From positions 1 to 64,000 of IMG/VR virus record IMGVR_UViG_3300047560_000724: 64,000 bases of DNA. One strand, given 5' to 3'. This DNA is from a virus. Numbering within the stretch: position 1 is the stretch's first letter; every line of letters begins with the position of its first letter. A model generated the notes under the pieces. The model searched no databases. It had not been told where the DNA came from and saw only the letters and a list, made by a program, of their open reading frames with translations. Both the position numbers and the translations under genes were made by a program. This document shows positions 55,323-63,859 of this stretch, piece after piece.

Positions 55323-56732
55323 TTACAGGTCGTAGCGTGGGACCATTACAGTCTTAAGCATAATACCTTCTGGAGTGAACTGATCAAGATCAGCACTCAA
55401 AAGAGCTGTCATAATGCTTGGGCTGAACCCTGACACCAAAGCAGCTCCTGTCTTGTCTGCCTTAACAGGTACATTGTCTGAACTGTTTAGGTTCCAGAAA
55501 ACAATCTGTGGCATTGCATAGCCAGCGGCTTCGAACTTGCGTTCGATCATTTCCATTGCGCTATCGTCGTAACGGGCGCATTGGTTGAATTGCATGTCTG
55601 ACAAGATTAGTAGCATAGCTGGCATATCGCTAGCAGGAACATTTCCCTTAACTGCTGTGCTTAGGATCTTATCCATAGCGGCATGCAGGTTAGTACTCAT
55701 TTCCCAGTTGCTACGAGACATTTGGTCAACCTTTTCAACAATGTTACCCTTTAGAGTAACAAGTTGTGGCTTGCTTGAGAAAGTCAAGAATGTGTCCTTG
55801 AACGCACCCTTGTTCTTGTCTGCAAGGTACAAGCCTAGGCTTACGGCTACATCAAGACAACGAACACTAGTGTCACGACCTGCTGGGCAAGTCATAGAAC
55901 CAGATACATCAACTAGAGGTAGGATACTTGCGTTGCCTACATAGTTTGGCAGAGCATCCCATTGTGCGATCACATGGTTAGTCTCTGTCTTGTCCAAAGT
56001 CTTGTAGCCGTGTGCGATGCCCTTTAGGACATCATGTGGGAAGATTGCGTTGGCGTTAACCTTAACAGTCTTATCCCCTGCCACCAACTTGGCCACATAC
56101 TCTGCAAACGCAGGTGTGTGACGGTTGAATGCCTTCTTGTATTGGCGAGCCGCTACAGAAGGAACATGGCTAAAGTTGATGTTATCCCAATCTCCTGCAC
56201 ACATTTGGGTTTCAACAACCTTTGTAAGTGCCACAAGGCTCTTACGGTATTGCTTTGGAGTCATGCCAAAGAAGGCACGGATCTCAGCGGCAATCTGACC
56301 CTTACGAGGAGTCCACTTTGCAGCCAAACCGTTCTTAGCACGAAGGGCATCGCCCAACATGGTATAAGCGGCTGACTTCAGAACTGGGTCTGAGAAGACA
56401 AAGATGTCATCCCAACGACCAACTTCTGGAACCTTGCGAAGCAAAGCCAAAGCGGCGTCTGGGTCACGCTTTTCTAGATGAACTAGAATGTCGCGGAACA
56501 GTTGACGCTCACCTGCACCACCACGGACATCTCGTGCCCATTGTGCAATGCGAAGTGCAACATCAGAGTTTTCCACATAGGCTGCAGTGAAGTCAGCCTT
56601 AATATCCTTACCACGGCTTGCGCCGATCTTGTAGAACAAGTCAACACACGCCTTAGCTGTGGACTTACGAGCCTTCATGCCATTGGCAGTACGGGCTTCT
56701 TGATTTGCGATTGCGTTTACAAATGCGTTCAT
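55323..56732 (-). CDS. DUF2828 family protein (Ro60/TROVE-like helical domain plus vWA)
   Basis: RDVRGGAGER, GRWDD, AAKW.PR and VPSVA motifs; vWA MIDAS DVSGSM...LSDMQF...VFWNL...LVSGFSP. Confidence 0.85.
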   Translation of the reverse strand: MNAFVNAIANQEARTANGMKARKSTAKACVDLFYKIGASRGKDIKADFTAAYVENSDVALRIAQWARDVRGGAGERQLFRDILVHLEKRDPDAALALLRKVPEVGRWDDIFVFSDPVLKSAAYTMLGDALRAKNGLAAKWTPRKGQIAAEIRAFFGMTPKQYRKSLVALTKVVETQMCAGDWDNINFSHVPSVAARQYKKAFNRHTPAFAEYVAKLVAGDKTVKVNANAIFPHDVLKGIAHGYKTLDKTETNHVIAQWDALPNYVGNASILPLVDVSGSMTCPAGRDTSVRCLDVAVSLGLYLADKNKGAFKDTFLTFSSKPQLVTLKGNIVEKVDQMSRSNWEMSTNLHAAMDKILSTAVKGNVPASDMPAMLLILSDMQFNQCARYDDSAMEMIERKFEAAGYAMPQIVFWNLNSSDNVPVKADKTGAALVSGFSPSIMTALLSADLDQFTPEGIMLKTVMVPRYDL

Positions 56733-58942: not shown

Positions 58943-59329
58943 TTATCGTTTAAGTCCCCTTGCCTGTCTGCCCTTACCTTTATTCTTAGCAACAAATGTA
59001 TCTGTTTGACTATGGCAGTTTGGACACAACAGTCTTAAATTTTTTGGCTTATCATTACCTGCATCACCGTCTATATGATCTAATTGTAGCACTAAAGGTA
59101 CATCGTTGTAAACCCCTTCATTGCCACAACTTACACATCTATAACCATGCAAGTGTGTTAAGCATCTTATTAAAGTTCTTCTTGTAGAAATTTCGCCTTT
59201 TAAAAACTTAGACAAAGTTTCTGTTTCAAATTGATGTTGCTGCTGACAAGTGTTATTACAATACTTGTTTGCATAATTCCTTTTTACAGGATTCTCTTTA
59301 CCGCAACATAAACAATTGAATGTATTCAT
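58943..59329 (-). CDS. HNH endonuclease (free-standing homing type)
   Basis: CVSCG...LQLDHIDG...N....NLRLLCPNCH; start MNTFNC. Confidence 0.88.
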   Translation of the reverse strand: MNTFNCLCCGKENPVKRNYANKYCNNTCQQQHQFETETLSKFLKGEISTRRTLIRCLTHLHGYRCVSCGNEGVYNDVPLVLQLDHIDGDAGNDKPKNLRLLCPNCHSQTDTFVAKNKGKGRQARGLKR

Positions 59330-59369
59330 AATGTAGTCCTCTACATTATTTATACAGAACTCTACATTT

Positions 59370-60050
59370 TTAAAGAACTTTGGTGGAGGTAACAGGGATC
59401 GAACCTGCGACATTTTGGTTGCAAACCAAACGCTCTCCCAGCTGAGCTATACCCCCGAATAACGCTTTTTTAGCATCATCAAAATAAACAGCGCCTGGAT
59501 TAACATCTCTTAATGTTAGCACCATTCTTTCATTTTTTGATTTGCTGTTATCAAAATCGTGAAAAATTTCTGTATTAAAAAGAATACACTCGCCCTGTTG
59601 TGCGGTCATACGCTTTAATGGAGTATGTTTTTTAGAATCAAATCCTAAACATTCTCTACTTTGTTTCCTTTCAATAGGATCAGGATCAATTGGGTATTCT
59701 TTTAACTCTTCATCGGAATACCAACTTGTAACACAATCGTTATCAAGAATCTTAACTGTATAATTAAGACTGTAGCGATGGTCTAACCCGTCCTTATGTG
59801 CTCTATAATAATATCCTGGCTGTGTTGTAAACAACGACACTCGCCATTGATTTAATTTTAGTTCTTCATTCAATGGTATACTATCCATAATATCTTTTGC
59901 TTGTGCTGTAGGATATATGTGATGTGTAAATCCTTTTGTAAAGGACATACCCCATACATACGCCAGGCATTTAGTTATTACAGTATCTAGTCCTTCGTGT
60001 GTAAAACGAATATAGTACGGACTACAGTCTTCTATTATAGTATACTTCAT
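59370..60050 (-). CDS. 2OG-Fe(II) oxygenase/cupin-like protein; C-terminus runs through tRNA-Ala
   Basis: AHKD...FNTEIFH...R..L motif. Confidence 0.6.
   Translation of the reverse strand: MKYTIIEDCSPYYIRFTHEGLDTVITKCLAYVWGMSFTKGFTHHIYPTAQAKDIMDSIPLNEELKLNQWRVSLFTTQPGYYYRAHKDGLDHRYSLNYTVKILDNDCVTSWYSDEELKEYPIDPDPIERKQSRECLGFDSKKHTPLKRMTAQQGECILFNTEIFHDFDNSKSKNERMVLTLRDVNPGAVYFDDAKKALFGGIAQLGERLVCNQNVAGSIPVTSTKVL
59381..59456 (-). tRNA. tRNA-Ala(TGC)
   Basis: Loop TTTGCAA, G3-U70, CCA. Confidence 0.92.
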
Positions 60051-60143: not shown

Positions 60144-60593
60144 TCATATCTCTTTATGTAGCCTATAAAATTTAGGGTACATACCGACCTTGGCCGCTGA
60201 TGCTAAACGACTCTTGTTGTTTACTTCAACAAGACTACTTAACATATAAGCGCCTAATTTTTTACAATCTGCCTCGTAGTACTCGTGGCAAATTTGATTT
60301 AATCCTCTTCCTCGGAATTCTGGTTCAGTAAAACTAAGAACTAACCAGCCCATTCGTTGATCTGGATAGTATTCATAAGCAATACCGCCTTGAACATTAC
60401 CACTAGTATCTTGCACCCAAACAACTCTGTTTGAAATCTTAAATGCAAAAGTGGGTAATGAAAACCCTTTATCAACAAGTTCAGCCCAAACTTTTAAAAA
60501 CGGAGCAACAACTGGAGTATATTGCATCGTATCCGATTGCCAAACTTCAATTGGGTTACCTAGCTTGTCTTGAGCATCTGCTATCTTCTTCAT
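60144..60593 (-). CDS. GNAT-family N-acetyltransferase
   Basis: PEFRGRGL acetyl-CoA motif and N..S......K.G motif. Confidence 0.78.
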   Translation of the reverse strand: MKKIADAQDKLGNPIEVWQSDTMQYTPVVAPFLKVWAELVDKGFSLPTFAFKISNRVVWVQDTSGNVQGGIAYEYYPDQRMGWLVLSFTEPEFRGRGLNQICHEYYEADCKKLGAYMLSSLVEVNNKSRLASAAKVGMYPKFYRLHKEI

Positions 60594-61636: not shown

Positions 61637-61732
61637 TACCATATAGAAACACACTAGCGGGCATATCTAGGTTGCCGCTTATCGCACCTTAGTCCTAGTA
61701 CTGAGTATAGGCTAGTGCATTTTTATATGGTA
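61637..61732 (-). repeat. Long-stem cassette A (conserved ~20-bp stem, variable interior)
   Basis: TACCATATAAAAATGCACTAGC...GCTAGTGTGTTTCTATATGGTA. Confidence 0.75.
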
Positions 61733-61803
61733 CTCGGTAGGGGAATCGAACCCCTCTTCCCGCCGTGAAAGGGCGGTGTCCTAGACCGATAGACGAACCG
61801 AGC
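61728..61803 (-). tRNA. tRNA-Glu(TTC)
   Basis: Loop CTTTCAC, CCA. Confidence 0.92.
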
Positions 61804-61863
61804 AAATTAACCGTTAAATTTTTAATGAACAATTATACTACTGTGTTAACAGCGTATGTATCT

Positions 61864-61907
61864 ATTATATAGCCTACCAAGCATTGTGTCAATACTTTTT
61901 TGGCTAA
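61864..61907 (-). promoter_or_regulatory. sigma70 promoter inside the tRNA array with upstream TTAGCCAAAA box
   Basis: TTGACA-N17-TATAAT; box at 61898-61907. Confidence 0.75.
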
Positions 61908-61923
61908 CAATGCAAATATATTT

Positions 61924-61998
61924 TGGCCGGGCTTAGAGGAATCGAACCTCTACCTGCGGTTTCGAAGACCGTAATGATATCCATTTCACCAAAGCCCG
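61924..61998 (-). tRNA. tRNA-Arg(TCG)
   Basis: Loop CTTCGAA, CCA. Confidence 0.85.
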
Positions 61999-62011
61999 CA
62001 ATAAATATTCT

Positions 62012-62554
62012 GTGAAAAATTATTATCCAATACTAGTTGACAATTTAGAATCATTAAGGGAAAAAGTACTTGCCAATCTTCCTGAACGAGTTTTTAACTT
62101 TACTGCCGTTACTTACGACCATGCACTTGCTTATAACATAGCAAGACTACCCGAAGTAGTTTCTGCACTCGAACAGTTTGGAGGTATTAAACAAATTGAG
62201 TCAATTGCGTTTAATGTAACACCACCTAACCGTACTGGGAAGATACATACCGACACTGGCGGATATGCTTACACTTTTAATATTCCATTATTAAATTTTA
62301 GAAACACATTCTTACGGTTACACAGGAAAACTAAAGAACCTATTTCTAAAACTTATAAAGATCCGCAAGGTAATGATATCAATTATCACTTATACAATAA
62401 AACAAACTGTGTGTTAGATCAAACAATAGAAACGCTTGAACCACATATATTTAATACAACAGTTCCACATCAAGTAGTTAATCCTAACGATACTATCAGA
62501 ATTAATATGCTGATTAGATTGAAGTTAGATACTGACTTTAGTAAATTTAATTAA
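62012..62554 (+). CDS. 2OG-Fe(II) oxygenase-like protein, antisense to the tRNA array
   Basis: IHTD...FNTTVPHQV...R motif; ATAAATA directly upstream. Confidence 0.62.
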   Translation: MKNYYPILVDNLESLREKVLANLPERVFNFTAVTYDHALAYNIARLPEVVSALEQFGGIKQIESIAFNVTPPNRTGKIHTDTGGYAYTFNIPLLNFRNTFLRLHRKTKEPISKTYKDPQGNDINYHLYNKTNCVLDQTIETLEPHIFNTTVPHQVVNPNDTIRINMLIRLKLDTDFSKFN

Positions 62555-62555
62555 C

Positions 62556-62630
62556 TGGCACCGCGAGTTGGATTCGAACCAACATCTTACACTTTAGAAG
62601 AGTGTTGCCTATCCCTTAGACTATCGCGGT
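62556..62630 (-). tRNA. tRNA-Arg(TCT)
   Basis: Loop CTTCTAA, CCA. Confidence 0.9.
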
Positions 62631-62631
62631 A

Positions 62632-62705
62632 TGGTGCTCTTAGATAGAATCGAACTATCATTACCTCCATACCAAAGAGGCGTTCTACCATTTAACTATA
62701 AGAGC
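62632..62705 (-). tRNA. tRNA-Thr(GGT)
   Basis: Loop TTGGTAT, CCA. Confidence 0.85.
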
Positions 62706-62707
62706 AA

Positions 62708-62786
62708 TGGTACCCCTGCTCCGATTCGAACGGAGAACAACTTCTCCTTTTGAGAGAGACGACTTTACCAATTTGTCCACAGGGGC
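62708..62786 (-). tRNA. tRNA-Leu(CAA), short variable arm
   Basis: Loop CTCAAAA, CCA. Confidence 0.82.
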
Positions 62787-62843
62787 ATAGAATTTGTCTT
62801 AGATTGTTCACCGCACAATCTAAGAAAGCGGGGGTCTGTTGAA

Positions 62844-63056
62844 TTTGTAAGTAGTTCCCCCATCGTTATAGGAACCATTCACCCGTGTAATTAAGCCGGC
62901 CGGGACTCGGTACGCCACTAGGGATACTAGTCCAGTTTAGCAACCTGTTTGCAACCGTCCTTCCGGGCGGCCGGGAGTTGAACCCGCAACCTTCTACTAT
63001 TTCGGTCCTTCGAAGAAACCTAGATAGCGTGACATTCTCTTGCTGACACTTACAAA
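62844..63056 (-). ncRNA. Structured ~213-nt RNA with an internal T-arm/closed-hairpin/D-arm-like module
   Basis: 9-bp terminal stem TTTGTAAGT/ACTTACAAA, then GT-CAGCAA; CGGG-TTCAACT-CCCG. Confidence 0.6.
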
Positions 63057-63061
63057 ACTGT

Positions 63062-63137
63062 TGGGGTGCTAGATGGGGAACGATCCCATACTATCGCTTT
63101 CACAGAGCGAGGTGCAGACCACTACACTACTAACACC
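63062..63137 (-). tRNA. tRNA-His(GTG)
   Basis: Loop CTGTGAA, G-1/C73, CCA. Confidence 0.85.
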
Positions 63138-63145
63138 ATAGAAAA

Positions 63146-63264
63146 AACAGGATACATTTTATAGCGCACTACCAATTGTGCTAACTTGGCATGAAGCCAA
63201 ATGTTGGACTCGAACCAACAACCTCTCGCTTAGAAGGCGAAAATTGTTTGCTGTTAGTATCCTA
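63146..63264 (-). ncRNA. ACAGCAA-stem RNA element 4 enclosing a circularly permuted tRNA-Arg(TCT) (YrlA-like)
   Basis: AGGATAC-TA-ACAGCAA, anticodon arm, T arm, loop-closed acceptor stem, D arm, GTATCCT-GT. Confidence 0.8.
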
Positions 63265-63268
63265 AACT

Positions 63269-63344
63269 TGGAGCGGGAGACGAGGTTCGAACTCGCGACA
63301 TTTACCTTGGCAAGGTAATGCTCTACCAACTGAGCTACTCCCGC
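63269..63344 (-). tRNA. tRNA-Gly(GCC)
   Basis: Loop TTGCCAA, CCA. Confidence 0.93.
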
Positions 63345-63352
63345 ATGAGACT

Positions 63353-63429
63353 TGGCGCGGTGGACGGGGCTCGAACCCGCGACCCTTGGCGTGACAGGCC
63401 AATACTCTGACCAACTGAGCTACCACCGC
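63353..63429 (-). tRNA. tRNA-Asp(GTC)
   Basis: Loop CTGTCAC, CCA. Confidence 0.92.
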
Positions 63430-63452
63430 GTAATTTTAATTATCTTTTATTT

Positions 63453-63526
63453 TGGTTCCTCCAACAAGAATCGAACTTGTAATGACCGGTTATCAGCCGA
63501 TTGTTATACCATTTAACTATAGAGGA
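63453..63526 (-). tRNA. tRNA-Ile(GAT)
   Basis: Loop CTGATAA, CCA. Confidence 0.88.
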
Positions 63527-63532
63527 ATAATT

Positions 63533-63607
63533 TGGTGGTGATGAGTAGAGTCGAACTACCACCAGACTCCGTATGAAGGAGGCGCACTACCATTATGCTA
63601 CATCACC
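63533..63607 (-). tRNA. tRNA with CAT anticodon (elongator Met or Ile2)
   Basis: Loop TTCATAC, CCA; identity not resolved by eye. Confidence 0.8.
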
Positions 63608-63700
63608 ATATAGAAACACACTCGTGCCTTTTTCGTCAGAGGAAGGTGGCCTTTCCCAGTACCCGGACTATGTCCGGTGTCGAATATGTTTTCATATGGT
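63605..63700 (-). repeat. Long-stem cassette B
   Basis: ACCATATGAAAACATATTCG...CGAGTGTGTTTCTATATGGT. Confidence 0.75.
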
Positions 63701-63702
63701 AA

Positions 63703-63790
63703 TACCATATAGAAACACACTGGCTTGCAAGACTTCTACTAACCTTTCGATGGATGTCGCAGTTAGTATTCAATGTGTTTTTATATGGTA
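63703..63790 (-). repeat. Long-stem cassette C
   Basis: TACCATATAAAAACACATTG...CAGTGTGTTTCTATATGGTA. Confidence 0.75.
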
Positions 63791-63859
63791 GGGGCACAGA
63801 GAATCGAACTCTGATTAATAGGTTAAAAGCCTACTACTTTGCCGTTAAGTTATACCCCC
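63786..63859 (-). tRNA. tRNA-Lys(TTT)
   Basis: Loop CTTTTAA, CCA. Confidence 0.87.

What the first reader, a model, noticed from the sequence alone, without database searches (positions are those of the whole stretch)
61637..63790. Three cassettes with an invariant ~20-bp stem and unrelated ~50-nt cargo in the tRNA array
Seen at 61637-61732, 63605-63700 and 63703-63790. The 3' arm AGTGTGTTTCTATATGGT (minus strand) is identical in all three. The 5' arm varies only through G-U wobbles and always leaves an A-C mismatch at the same position. Interiors of about 48-56 nt are unrelated and some have their own hairpins (CCGGAC/GTCCGG; TACTAAC/GTTAGTA). Two cassettes start in the ACCA end of the upstream tRNA (Glu, Lys). 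Inference: processing stems of RNase III-substrate size, or protein-binding handles, that release distinct small RNAs. This is a second constant-frame, variable-cargo RNA family separate from the ACAGCAA one.
Basis: partly seen in the sequence, partly recalled or inferred. Interest (0 to 1): 0.7.

Follow-up and report, generated by a model that had tools for sequence, protein, structure and literature searches.

The report
Clamp-stem RNA cassettes in phage tRNA array
Three small hairpin RNAs between this uncultured lake phage's tRNA genes share one 19-base-pair stem that starts on a tRNA's CCA end; they belong to a large, apparently undescribed, phage-only RNA family whose stem probably serves as a cutting or binding handle for hundreds of different small folded RNAs.

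Summary
The three cassettes are members of a large family.

The family lies on the tRNA-sense strand. It is absent from GenBank phages, has no Rfam match here, and in cellular genomes occurs only on six short freshwater MAG contigs.

The stem is a 19-bp RNA helix:
- 11 of 19 pairs change on both sides (0 of 500 shuffles reach this).
- G·U outnumbers A·C 299 to 27 outside position 9.
- Position 9 is non-Watson-Crick in 71% of copies. The same holds in a second, sequence-different stem class.

The interiors fall into about 156 families. Each is conserved and its hairpins covary. They are swapped between slots and between phages.

The element sits mainly behind tRNA-Lys(UUU): 105 of 128 genes, and 12 of 22 in a sample not chosen for the element.

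Best reading: a processing stem of RNase III type that frees the flanking tRNAs and releases a stem-capped small RNA. Cleavage itself is not shown, and what the cargo RNAs do is unknown. A protein-binding handle remains possible.

This scan had already noted the same family on seven other genomes, with the same reading.

The parts
63704..63789 (-). Cassette 3. 5' arm 63789-63771, cargo 63770-63723, 3' arm 63722-63704. Its ACCA is the 3' end of tRNA-Lys(UUU).
   Evidence: z -5.7; 66 bits. The cargo family has 6 distinct members in 9 loci, with covarying hairpins. A 97-nt contig of an RNA library is identical over 63705-63801.
63605..63700 (-). Cassette 2, in tandem 3 nt behind cassette 3. 5' arm 63700-63682, cargo 63681-63624, 3' arm 63623-63605. 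Its last GGT is bases 1-3 of tRNA-Met.
   Evidence: z -4.9; 53 bits. The cargo family has 5 distinct members in 7 loci. An RNA-library contig covers 63574-63701 with 10 differences.
61638..61731 (-). Cassette 1. 5' arm 61731-61713, cargo 61712-61657, 3' arm 61656-61638. Its ACCA is the 3' end of tRNA-Glu(UUC). A 10-nt spacer separates it from tRNA-Leu(UAG).
   Evidence: z -4.0; 52 bits. The cargo family has 3 members.
63786..63859 (-). tRNA-Lys(UUU). Its discriminator and CCA form the base of the cassette 3 stem.
   Evidence: ARAGORN and Rfam tRNA at 65.5 bits.
61728..61803 (-). tRNA-Glu(UUC). Its discriminator and CCA form the base of the cassette 1 stem.
63533..63607 (-). tRNA-Met(CAU). Its first three bases, GGU, close the cassette 2 stem.

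Best explanation
The cassettes are co-transcribed with the tRNAs. Each folds into a 19-bp clamp helix with three features:
- 8 bp at the base, ACCAUAUA paired with UAUAUGGU;
- a non-Watson-Crick pair at position 9;
- about 10 further bp, including a U·G at position 17.

The helix pairs the CCA end of the upstream RNA with the leader, or the first bases, of the next tRNA.

Inferred mechanism: a double-strand-specific endonuclease, most likely host RNase III, cuts near the central mismatch. The AU-rich 8-bp base then falls apart. This leaves the upstream tRNA with a trailer of a few nucleotides for exonuclease trimming. It leaves the next tRNA with a short leader for RNase P. The cargo is released as a small RNA capped by the upper half of the stem.

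The cargos are independent small structured RNAs. They are exchanged between slots and between phages, probably by recombination in the conserved arms.

Shown: the RNA-level helix, its strand, its junctions with tRNAs, conservation and covariation of stem and cargo, cargo swapping, and presence in RNA libraries.

Inferred: the cleavage, the enzyme, the released product and any function of the cargo.
For: Size of the family:
- This gave 234 distinct elements in 161 loci.

The helix:
- 94% of cells are paired, and 11 of 19 pairs change on both sides.
- 0 of 500 shuffles reach this, and structures slid by 1-3 columns score far lower.

Strand:
- All 234 elements could be oriented by the neighbouring tRNAs without ambiguity.
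- G·U outnumbers A·C 299 to 27 outside position 9.
- The sense strand scores higher with the covariance model.

Junctions:
- 170 of 258 instances start exactly on the NCCA of a tRNA.
- 81 of 258 end in the first bases of the next tRNA.

Length and mismatch:
[quoted passage not shown] Internal loops are known to shape cleavage there (PMC1540722).
- Position 9 is non-Watson-Crick in 71% of copies.
- The same holds in a second stem class of different sequence, ACCATAAGAATGACAAT paired with GTTGTCATCCTTATGGT.

The stem works without or with any cargo:
- Minimal copies with 8-12 nt between the arms exist between two tRNAs.
- A conserved RNA of about 220-270 nt stands alone in the window. It lies inside the second clamp stem in L507 and L521.

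Cargo:
- Cargo hairpins covary.

RNA libraries:
- RNA-library contigs cover cassettes 2 and 3.
- The opposite-strand ORF inside the array has zero depth in all four runs.
Against: No cleavage or RNA end has been observed. Contigs of RNA libraries cannot show ends, and such libraries may contain DNA.

No RNase III gene is present in the five phage records tested, two of them complete. The enzyme would therefore have to come from the host, which is unknown.

The arm sequence is conserved well beyond what pairing needs. Several pairs are invariant in all 234 copies. This fits a sequence-specific protein, or recombination-driven homogenisation, better than the weak sequence preference of RNase III.

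The proximal and distal box rules of E. coli RNase III could not be applied without a known cut site.
Confidence: 0.5

Rival explanations
1. The stem is a protein-binding handle, and each cassette is the RNA part of a ribonucleoprotein built like a Y RNA. A phage or host protein binds the constant stem with its mismatch. The variable head recruits or mimics something else.
For: - The arm sequence is conserved beyond pairing, and the mismatch is conserved in two stem classes.
- 16 of 112 cargos carry a T-loop motif just before the 3' arm.
- The L030 element aligns end to end with Rfam YrlA at 29.6 bits, with T and D arms in YrlA order.
- A DUF2828/DUF7788 gene, which an earlier unchecked note calls Ro60-like, lies beside the array in the window and in 20 of 177 loci.
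Against: - The stem has none of the Ro-binding motifs quoted in PMC4201824.
- The YrlA score is far below the gathering score of 69.
- TROVE is absent from six records.
- DUF2828 is absent from G003, which CheckV rates 100% complete and which carries the element.
- No protein family is tightly linked to the element.
- The ACAGCAA family is the better partner for the DUF2828 protein.
Confidence: 0.2
2. The element is mainly a DNA-level mobile or recombination cassette, like a MITE or an integron site. The inverted arms are the sites at which cargo DNA is moved. The RNA fold is a by-product.
For: - The same arms and cargo occur behind different tRNAs, for example one 44-nt cargo in L037, L047, L088, L098 and L108.
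- The same Lys-Met junction holds many different cargos.
- There are 156 cargo clusters among 234 elements.
- HNH endonuclease genes lie in the arrays.
Against: - Orientation is fixed relative to the tRNAs.
- The excess of G·U over A·C is specific to the sense strand.
- Compensatory changes maintain pairing.
- No target-site duplication is visible, and the ends coincide with tRNA ends.
- No GTTRRRY core of attC sites is present.
- Cargo hairpins covary.

Swapping by recombination is compatible with the best explanation and is part of it.
Confidence: 0.15
3. The stem is a cis-acting control of the upstream tRNA, chiefly tRNA-Lys(UUU). By holding the CCA end in a helix it would delay, gate or protect the maturation of a tRNA that host anticodon nucleases target. 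The cargo would tune this or act as a decoy.
For: - 105 of 128 tRNA-Lys(UUU) genes are followed directly by an element. The next most frequent are Gln(UUG) at 14% and Glu(UUC) at 11%. All other tRNAs are at 7% or less, and Met is 1 of 223.
- In a sample chosen by the DUF2828 gene, 12 of 22 Lys(UUU) genes are followed by an element, against 9 of 1,030 other tRNAs.
- The slot behind Lys(UUU) holds 70 cargo clusters.
Against: - 88 of 258 instances do not abut a tRNA.
- Tandem cassettes carry their own ACCA.
- The link to anticodon nucleases rests on general knowledge, not on a test here.
- The Lys/Gln/Glu pattern was noticed after the fact, and the loci are related to one another.
Confidence: 0.1

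Closest known systems
RNase III processing stems: the stalks flanking 16S and 23S rRNA, phage T7 early sites such as R1.1, and 23S rRNA intervening sequences
   Same: - A helix of about two turns, formed by sequences flanking the RNA to be released.
- It sits in a polycistronic precursor.
- A central non-Watson-Crick element lies where known sites have internal loops (PMC1540722).
- The interior is variable and the stem conserved, as in intervening sequences.
   Different: - One nearly constant stem sequence is shared by hundreds of phages.
- The stem starts on a tRNA CCA end.
- It holds about 156 unrelated cargo families.
- Cleavage has not been shown, and no phage RNase III gene was found.
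Phage T4 stable RNAs species 1 and 2 (rnaC, rnaD) in the T4 tRNA cluster
   Same: - They are small non-tRNA RNAs co-transcribed with phage tRNAs.
- rnaC has a T arm next to a stem formed by its two ends.
- Their roles are unknown (PMC3014915).
   Different: - There is no sequence or model match; the stem model finds nothing in the T4 tRNA region.
- T4 has two fixed RNAs, not a constant stem with swappable cargo.
Bacterial Y RNAs (YrlA) bound by Ro60/Rsr
   Same: - A stem formed by the 5' and 3' ends, plus a variable module that in YrlA mimics tRNA.
- One cargo (L030) aligns with the whole YrlA model.
   Different: - No Ro-binding motif and no TROVE gene.
- Most cargos are not tRNA-like.
- Scores are far below the Rfam threshold.
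Promoter-early stem-loop (PeSL) cassettes of T4-type phages (from my own knowledge of the literature; not read here)
   Same: Short conserved motifs flank swappable units in T4-type genomes and are thought to mediate shuffling by recombination.
   Different: PeSLs flank protein-coding genes and contain a promoter. Here the arms are inverted, pair as RNA, and enclose small non-coding RNAs.

Membership tests
RNase III processing stem | Double helix of about two turns, formed by the sequences on both sides of the released RNA | tested here: met
   19 covarying pairs. RNAfold extends pairing into the cargo ends in the three window copies.
RNase III processing stem | Lies between mature RNAs in one precursor transcript | tested here: met
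   The ends coincide with the tRNA 3' CCA in 170 of 258 instances and with the next tRNA's 5' end in 81 of 258. Co-transcription is inferred from shared strand and spacing.
RNase III processing stem | Staggered cleavage by RNase III, leaving 2-nt 3' overhangs | not testable with these tools
   Only contigs of RNA libraries were available, and they cannot show ends.
RNase III processing stem | Proximal and distal boxes free of inhibitory base pairs (E. coli rules, PMC1540722) | tested here: inconclusive
   The cut site and the host are unknown. I only note a conserved U·G at position 17 and a mismatch at position 9.
Y RNA / YrlA | Ro/Rsr-binding motif in the stem (GNCGAAN0-1G or GGUCCGA; PMC4201824) | tested here: not met
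   The stem is ACCAUAUAAAAACACAUU paired with AGUGUGUUUCUAUAUGGU; neither motif is present.
Y RNA / YrlA | Encoded next to a Ro60 (TROVE) gene | tested here: not met
   PF05731 is absent from six records. DUF2828 is present in only 2 of 5 records.
Y RNA / YrlA | Reaches the Rfam YrlA gathering score | tested here: not met
   No hit in the window's three cassettes at E up to 1. The best family member, L030, scores 29.6 bits against a threshold of 69.
MITE-like transposable element | Terminal inverted repeats with a target-site duplication, inserted in either orientation | tested here: not met
   Inverted arms are present. Orientation is fixed relative to the tRNAs, and no duplication is visible at the tRNA junctions.
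Integron attC site | R''/L'' and L'/R' boxes with a GTTRRRY core | tested here: not met
   No such core is in the arms, by reading the arm consensus. I did not search for an integrase.
tRNA | Cloverleaf recognised by ARAGORN or the Rfam tRNA model | tested here: not met
   ARAGORN at a relaxed threshold finds no tRNA inside 112 elements. The L044 cargo, which looked like a cloverleaf by eye, has no Rfam tRNA match.

The most novel reading that the evidence does not exclude
The clamp stem is the universal handle of a phage system for exchanging RNA cassettes. One hypervariable slot lies mainly behind tRNA-Lys(UUU). Phages load it by recombination from a pool of hundreds of small structured RNAs. 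These RNAs act as decoys or aptamers against host immunity that targets tRNAs, such as anticodon nucleases, or against other host factors. This would be an RNA counterpart of the variable anti-defence gene islands.
Probability: 0.2. Interest if true: 0.85.

Novelty: new variant of a known kind. Interest (0 to 1): 0.72.

Why it matters
Phage tRNA arrays are usually read as tRNA supply only. Here a large share of the longer spacers between tRNAs are ordered RNA modules. In the sampled arrays, 91 of 468 distinct gaps of 30-150 nt are of this one family.

A single conserved helix frames about 156 different, individually conserved small RNAs in uncultured freshwater T4-like and jumbo phages. None of them is in Rfam or in cultured phages.

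If the stem is a processing site, it defines a large set of new phage small RNAs that could be made and tested one by one. It would also give the 50-year-old puzzle of the T4 tRNA-cluster RNAs a much broader comparative base.

The strong tie to tRNA-Lys(UUU) suggests a testable link to the arms race over that tRNA.

Tried and rejected
- **Antisense or guide targets.** The three cargos matched against the phage's own 80.6 kb gave only matches of 11 nt or less, which is chance level. No host genome is known, so host targets could not be tried.
- **Cultured phages.** No match to the cassettes, and only chance partial matches to a minimal hairpin, in 50,697 GenBank records.
- **Cellular genomes.** 40 hits of the 17-mer is about what chance predicts. 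Only six have the partner arm, all on MAG contigs of 1.5-4.9 kb, probably mis-binned phage.
- **Literature.** The arm sequences occur in no paper of the library. Word searches gave nothing relevant.
- **Phage-encoded partners.** RNase III, RtcB and TROVE are absent from the records tested. Among ORF families in the loci, the most frequent is in only 38 of 177 loci. All ten examined lie a median of more than 1 kb from the nearest element. These include RNaseH_like PF04308, a metallophosphatase, Rpb6-like, a DSP phosphatase, DUF2828, a deaminase, HNH and radical SAM.
- **Cargo seeds.** The 14-15-nt seeds for cargos 1 and 2 gave mostly chance hits and had to be filtered by the arms.
- **RNA-library contigs.** Their ends at 63705 and 63801 cannot be read as RNA ends. 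Parts without cover are not evidence.
- **L044 cloverleaf.** My by-eye reading was not supported.
- **Terminator reading.** Rejected because no U-tract follows the 3' arm.
- **Empty sites.** No Lys-Met or Lys-His junction lacking an element was found in the element-seeded loci.
Full report
**Setting.** The window is the first 64 kb of an 80.6-kb uncultured viral contig that CheckV rates 21% complete. Its minus strand carries 28 tRNA genes between 57.3 and 63.9 kb. The contig carries a T4 gp9/10-like baseplate domain and a DUF2828/DUF7788 gene at 55323-56732. Three of four larger element-bearing contigs tested have a T4-type gp23 capsid gene. Close relatives, judged by the DUF2828 protein, reach 300-356 kb.

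The three cassettes lie at 61638-61731, 63605-63700 and 63704-63789 on the minus strand.
- The 3' arm is identical in all three. The 16-mer occurs three times, which 0 of 100 shuffles reach.
- The 5' arms differ only by changes that keep pairing.
- All three have A opposite C at position 9.
- Cassettes 1 and 3 begin with the discriminator and CCA of tRNA-Glu(UUC) and tRNA-Lys(UUU). Cassette 2 ends with the first GGU of tRNA-Met.
- All three fold with the arms paired, z -4.0 to -5.7.
- Rfam has no match in them at E up to 1.

**A large family.** In almost every case the partner arm lies 8-112 nt away. Oriented by the neighbouring tRNAs, the loci hold 234 distinct elements (258 instances in 161 loci), with no ambiguous orientation.
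- The loci are dense tRNA arrays: 2,722 tRNAs in 177 loci.
- A covariance model of the stem (R1) finds exactly three copies in the whole contig. It finds none in the T4 tRNA region.
- The element is missing from 50,697 GenBank phage records at the sensitivity used.
- Among 185,579 species genomes it occurs only on six short freshwater MAG contigs.
- DNA runs holding half or more of the stretch's sampled words, and all six RNA runs, are labelled freshwater metagenomes.

**The stem is an RNA helix under selection.**
- On 60 diverse copies, 94% of cells pair and 11 of 19 pairs change on both sides. No shuffle of 500 reaches any of the five measures, and structures slid by 1-3 columns score far lower.
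- On all 234 copies, positions 7, 8, 12, 13, 15, 16, 17 and 19 show compensatory pair types. Examples are U-A to G-C at position 7 and A-U to U-A at position 8.
- Outside position 9 there are 299 G·U pairs against 27 A·C oppositions (146 against 27 if position 17 is also left out). This points to the tRNA-sense transcript as the selected molecule.
- Position 9 is A·C in 61% and another mismatch in about 10%. It is Watson-Crick in 28%.
- Position 17 is U·G in 65%.

**A second stem class has the same design.** In close relatives chosen by the DUF2828 gene, the slot behind tRNA-Lys(UUU) holds one of two things. One is the stem described above. The other is a stem of different sequence, ACCATAAGAATGACAAT paired with GTTGTCATCCTTATGGT.
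- It has the same ACCA/UGGU base.
- It has a mismatch at position 9 again (A·C four times, plus G·U, C·C and U·U or A·A among the ten strand-readings listed).
- It is mostly U·G at position 17.

Only about six independent copies were seen. They suggest that helix geometry and the central mismatch are what is selected.

**The cargo RNAs are real and are swapped.** The 234 interiors fall into 156 clusters.
- Within clusters the inner hairpins show compensatory changes.
- The three window cargos each have relatives, always inside the same stem: 6 distinct in 9 loci, 5 in 7, and 3 in 3.
- In the cassette 3 family two nested hairpins covary. A 3' tail containing the palindrome CUUGCAAG is invariant.
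- The same stem and cargo occur behind different tRNAs, and the same Lys-Met junction holds many different cargos.
- Minimal copies have only 8-12 nt between the arms.
- 16 of 112 cargos carry a T-loop motif close to the 3' arm.
- One element (L030) aligns end to end with Rfam YrlA at 29.6 bits, far below the threshold of 69.
- ARAGORN finds no tRNA in any cargo.
- A conserved RNA of about 220-270 nt stands alone in the window (62787-63062, minus). It is found in 62 loci. In L507 and L521 it lies as cargo inside the second clamp stem, between tRNA-Lys and tRNA-Met. The clamp can therefore be added to an RNA that exists without it.

**Position in the arrays.**
- 170 of 258 instances start exactly on a tRNA's NCCA, and 81 end in the first bases of the next tRNA, mostly Met or His.
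- 105 of 128 tRNA-Lys(UUU) genes are followed directly by an element, with 70 different cargo clusters.
- Gln(UUG) follows at 14% and Glu(UUC) at 11%. Every other tRNA is at 7% or less, and Met is 1 of 223.
- These loci were found through the element, so the 82% is inflated.
- In 61 tRNA-bearing loci found through the DUF2828 gene, the figures are 12 of 22 for Lys(UUU) and 5 of 43 for Glu(UUC). Four further elements follow other tRNAs, making 9 among the 1,030 non-Lys(UUU) tRNAs. Gln is 0 of 20.
- The preference for Lys(UUU) is robust. The Lys/Gln/Glu trio was noticed after the fact and is weaker.

**Expression.** Four freshwater metatranscriptome runs were laid as contigs.
- One run holds a 97-nt contig identical to 63705-63801 (cassette 3 plus the end of tRNA-Lys). 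It also holds a 145-nt contig over 63574-63701 (cassette 2) with 10 differences.
- The opposite-strand ORF inside the array (62028-62482) has no depth in any of the four runs.
- This is weak support for transcription. Contigs cannot show ends, strand or level, and DNA can be present in such libraries.

**Mechanism.** I commit to a processing stem of RNase III type at 0.5.
- A helix of about two turns with a central non-Watson-Crick element matches what is described for E. coli RNase III substrates. There, internal loops shape the cleavage (PMC1540722).
- A cut near position 9 would leave an AU-rich 8-bp base that can melt. That gives the upstream tRNA a short 3' trailer and the next tRNA a short leader. 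It would release the cargo on the upper half of the stem.
- None of this is shown.
- Against it, the arm sequence is more conserved than pairing requires, and no phage RNase III gene was found.
- The main rival is a protein-binding handle in the manner of Y RNAs (0.2). The stem lacks the Ro motifs, TROVE is absent, and DUF2828 is missing from a complete genome that has the element.
- A purely DNA-level mobile element (0.15) is contradicted by the fixed orientation, the strand-specific wobble excess and the compensatory changes. Recombination in the arms remains the likeliest way the cargos are swapped.
- A cis-acting role on tRNA-Lys(UUU) (0.1) is suggested by the slot preference.

**What is known.**
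- The closest described things are RNase III stalks and intervening sequences, the T4 tRNA-cluster RNAs rnaC and rnaD, and Y RNAs.
- The roles of rnaC and rnaD are unknown (PMC3014915). rnaC also has a T arm beside a terminal stem.
- I found no description of this stem. The arm sequences occur in no paper of the library and in no Rfam family.

**Earlier notes of this scan.**
- Seven earlier notes describe the same family on other genomes, with the same reading. I reached my reading before opening them, and they are not independent evidence.
  - the second stem class with the same mismatch;
  - the preference for tRNA-Lys(UUU), including the less biased sample;
  - the nesting of a free-standing RNA inside a clamp stem;
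  - the wobble asymmetry;
  - the RNA-library contigs.

Noticed in passing
window 62787-63062 (-): A conserved RNA of about 220-270 nt lies between tRNA-His and tRNA-Leu(CAA). It opens with a CAGCAA-type stem (GTAAGTG...ACTTAC) and contains a T-arm-like hairpin. It has no Rfam match. It is found at 77-88% identity in 62 related loci and shows very high summed depth in two RNA libraries (about 1,400 and 200). In L507 and L521 it sits inside the second clamp stem.
   Followed up: partly
L531, L467, L506, L507, L521, L082, L059 (relatives): A second clamp-stem class, ACCATAAGAATGACAAT paired with GTTGTCATCCTTATGGT. It has the same ACCA/UGGU base, a mismatch at position 9 and mostly U·G at position 17. 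It holds cargos of about 170-205 nt (elements of 205-241 nt).
   Followed up: partly
window 63137-63268 (-): A circularly permuted tRNA mimic in the order T arm, closed acceptor stem, D arm. It matches the tRNA-like core of Rfam YrlA at 28.3 bits, below the threshold of 69. It belongs to the ACAGCAA family, which recurs in many of the related arrays with covarying stems (AGGATAC/GTATCCT and variants).
   Followed up: partly
161 related loci; window 61728-61803 and 63786-63859: Apart from tRNA-Lys(UUU), the tRNAs most often followed by an element are Gln(UUG) and Glu(UUC). From general knowledge, these three tRNAs carry 2-thiouridine at position 34. This was noticed after the fact, the loci are related, and Gln drops out in the DUF2828-chosen sample.
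   Followed up: partly
window 55323-56732 (-): A 469-aa protein with DUF2828 and DUF7788 domains lies just downstream of the array. Relatives of 86-93% identity occur in 344 viral stretches.
   Followed up: partly
window 62012-62554 (+): A 180-aa ORF lies on the strand opposite to the tRNAs, inside the array. It has only a weak sub-threshold Pfam match (Asp/Arg hydroxylase) and zero depth in four RNA libraries.
   Followed up: no
window 58943-59413 (-) and 60144-60593 (-): An HNH endonuclease gene and a GNAT acetyltransferase gene are embedded in the tRNA array. HNH genes recur in 19 related loci.
   Followed up: no
window 63723-63740 (-), cassette 3 cargo: The 3' tail of this cargo family (AGUCUUGCAAGC) is invariant in all six members and is predicted unpaired. 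It contains the 8-nt palindrome CUUGCAAG, which could pair between two molecules.
   Followed up: no
related loci, inter-tRNA gaps: Gap lengths between tRNAs are bimodal: most are under 20 nt, with a second peak at 70-79 nt. Of 468 distinct gaps of 30-150 nt, 91 are this family and 207 others are predicted to close with a stem of 8 bp or more. Several gaps of 50-60 nt look like sigma-70 promoters.
   Followed up: partly
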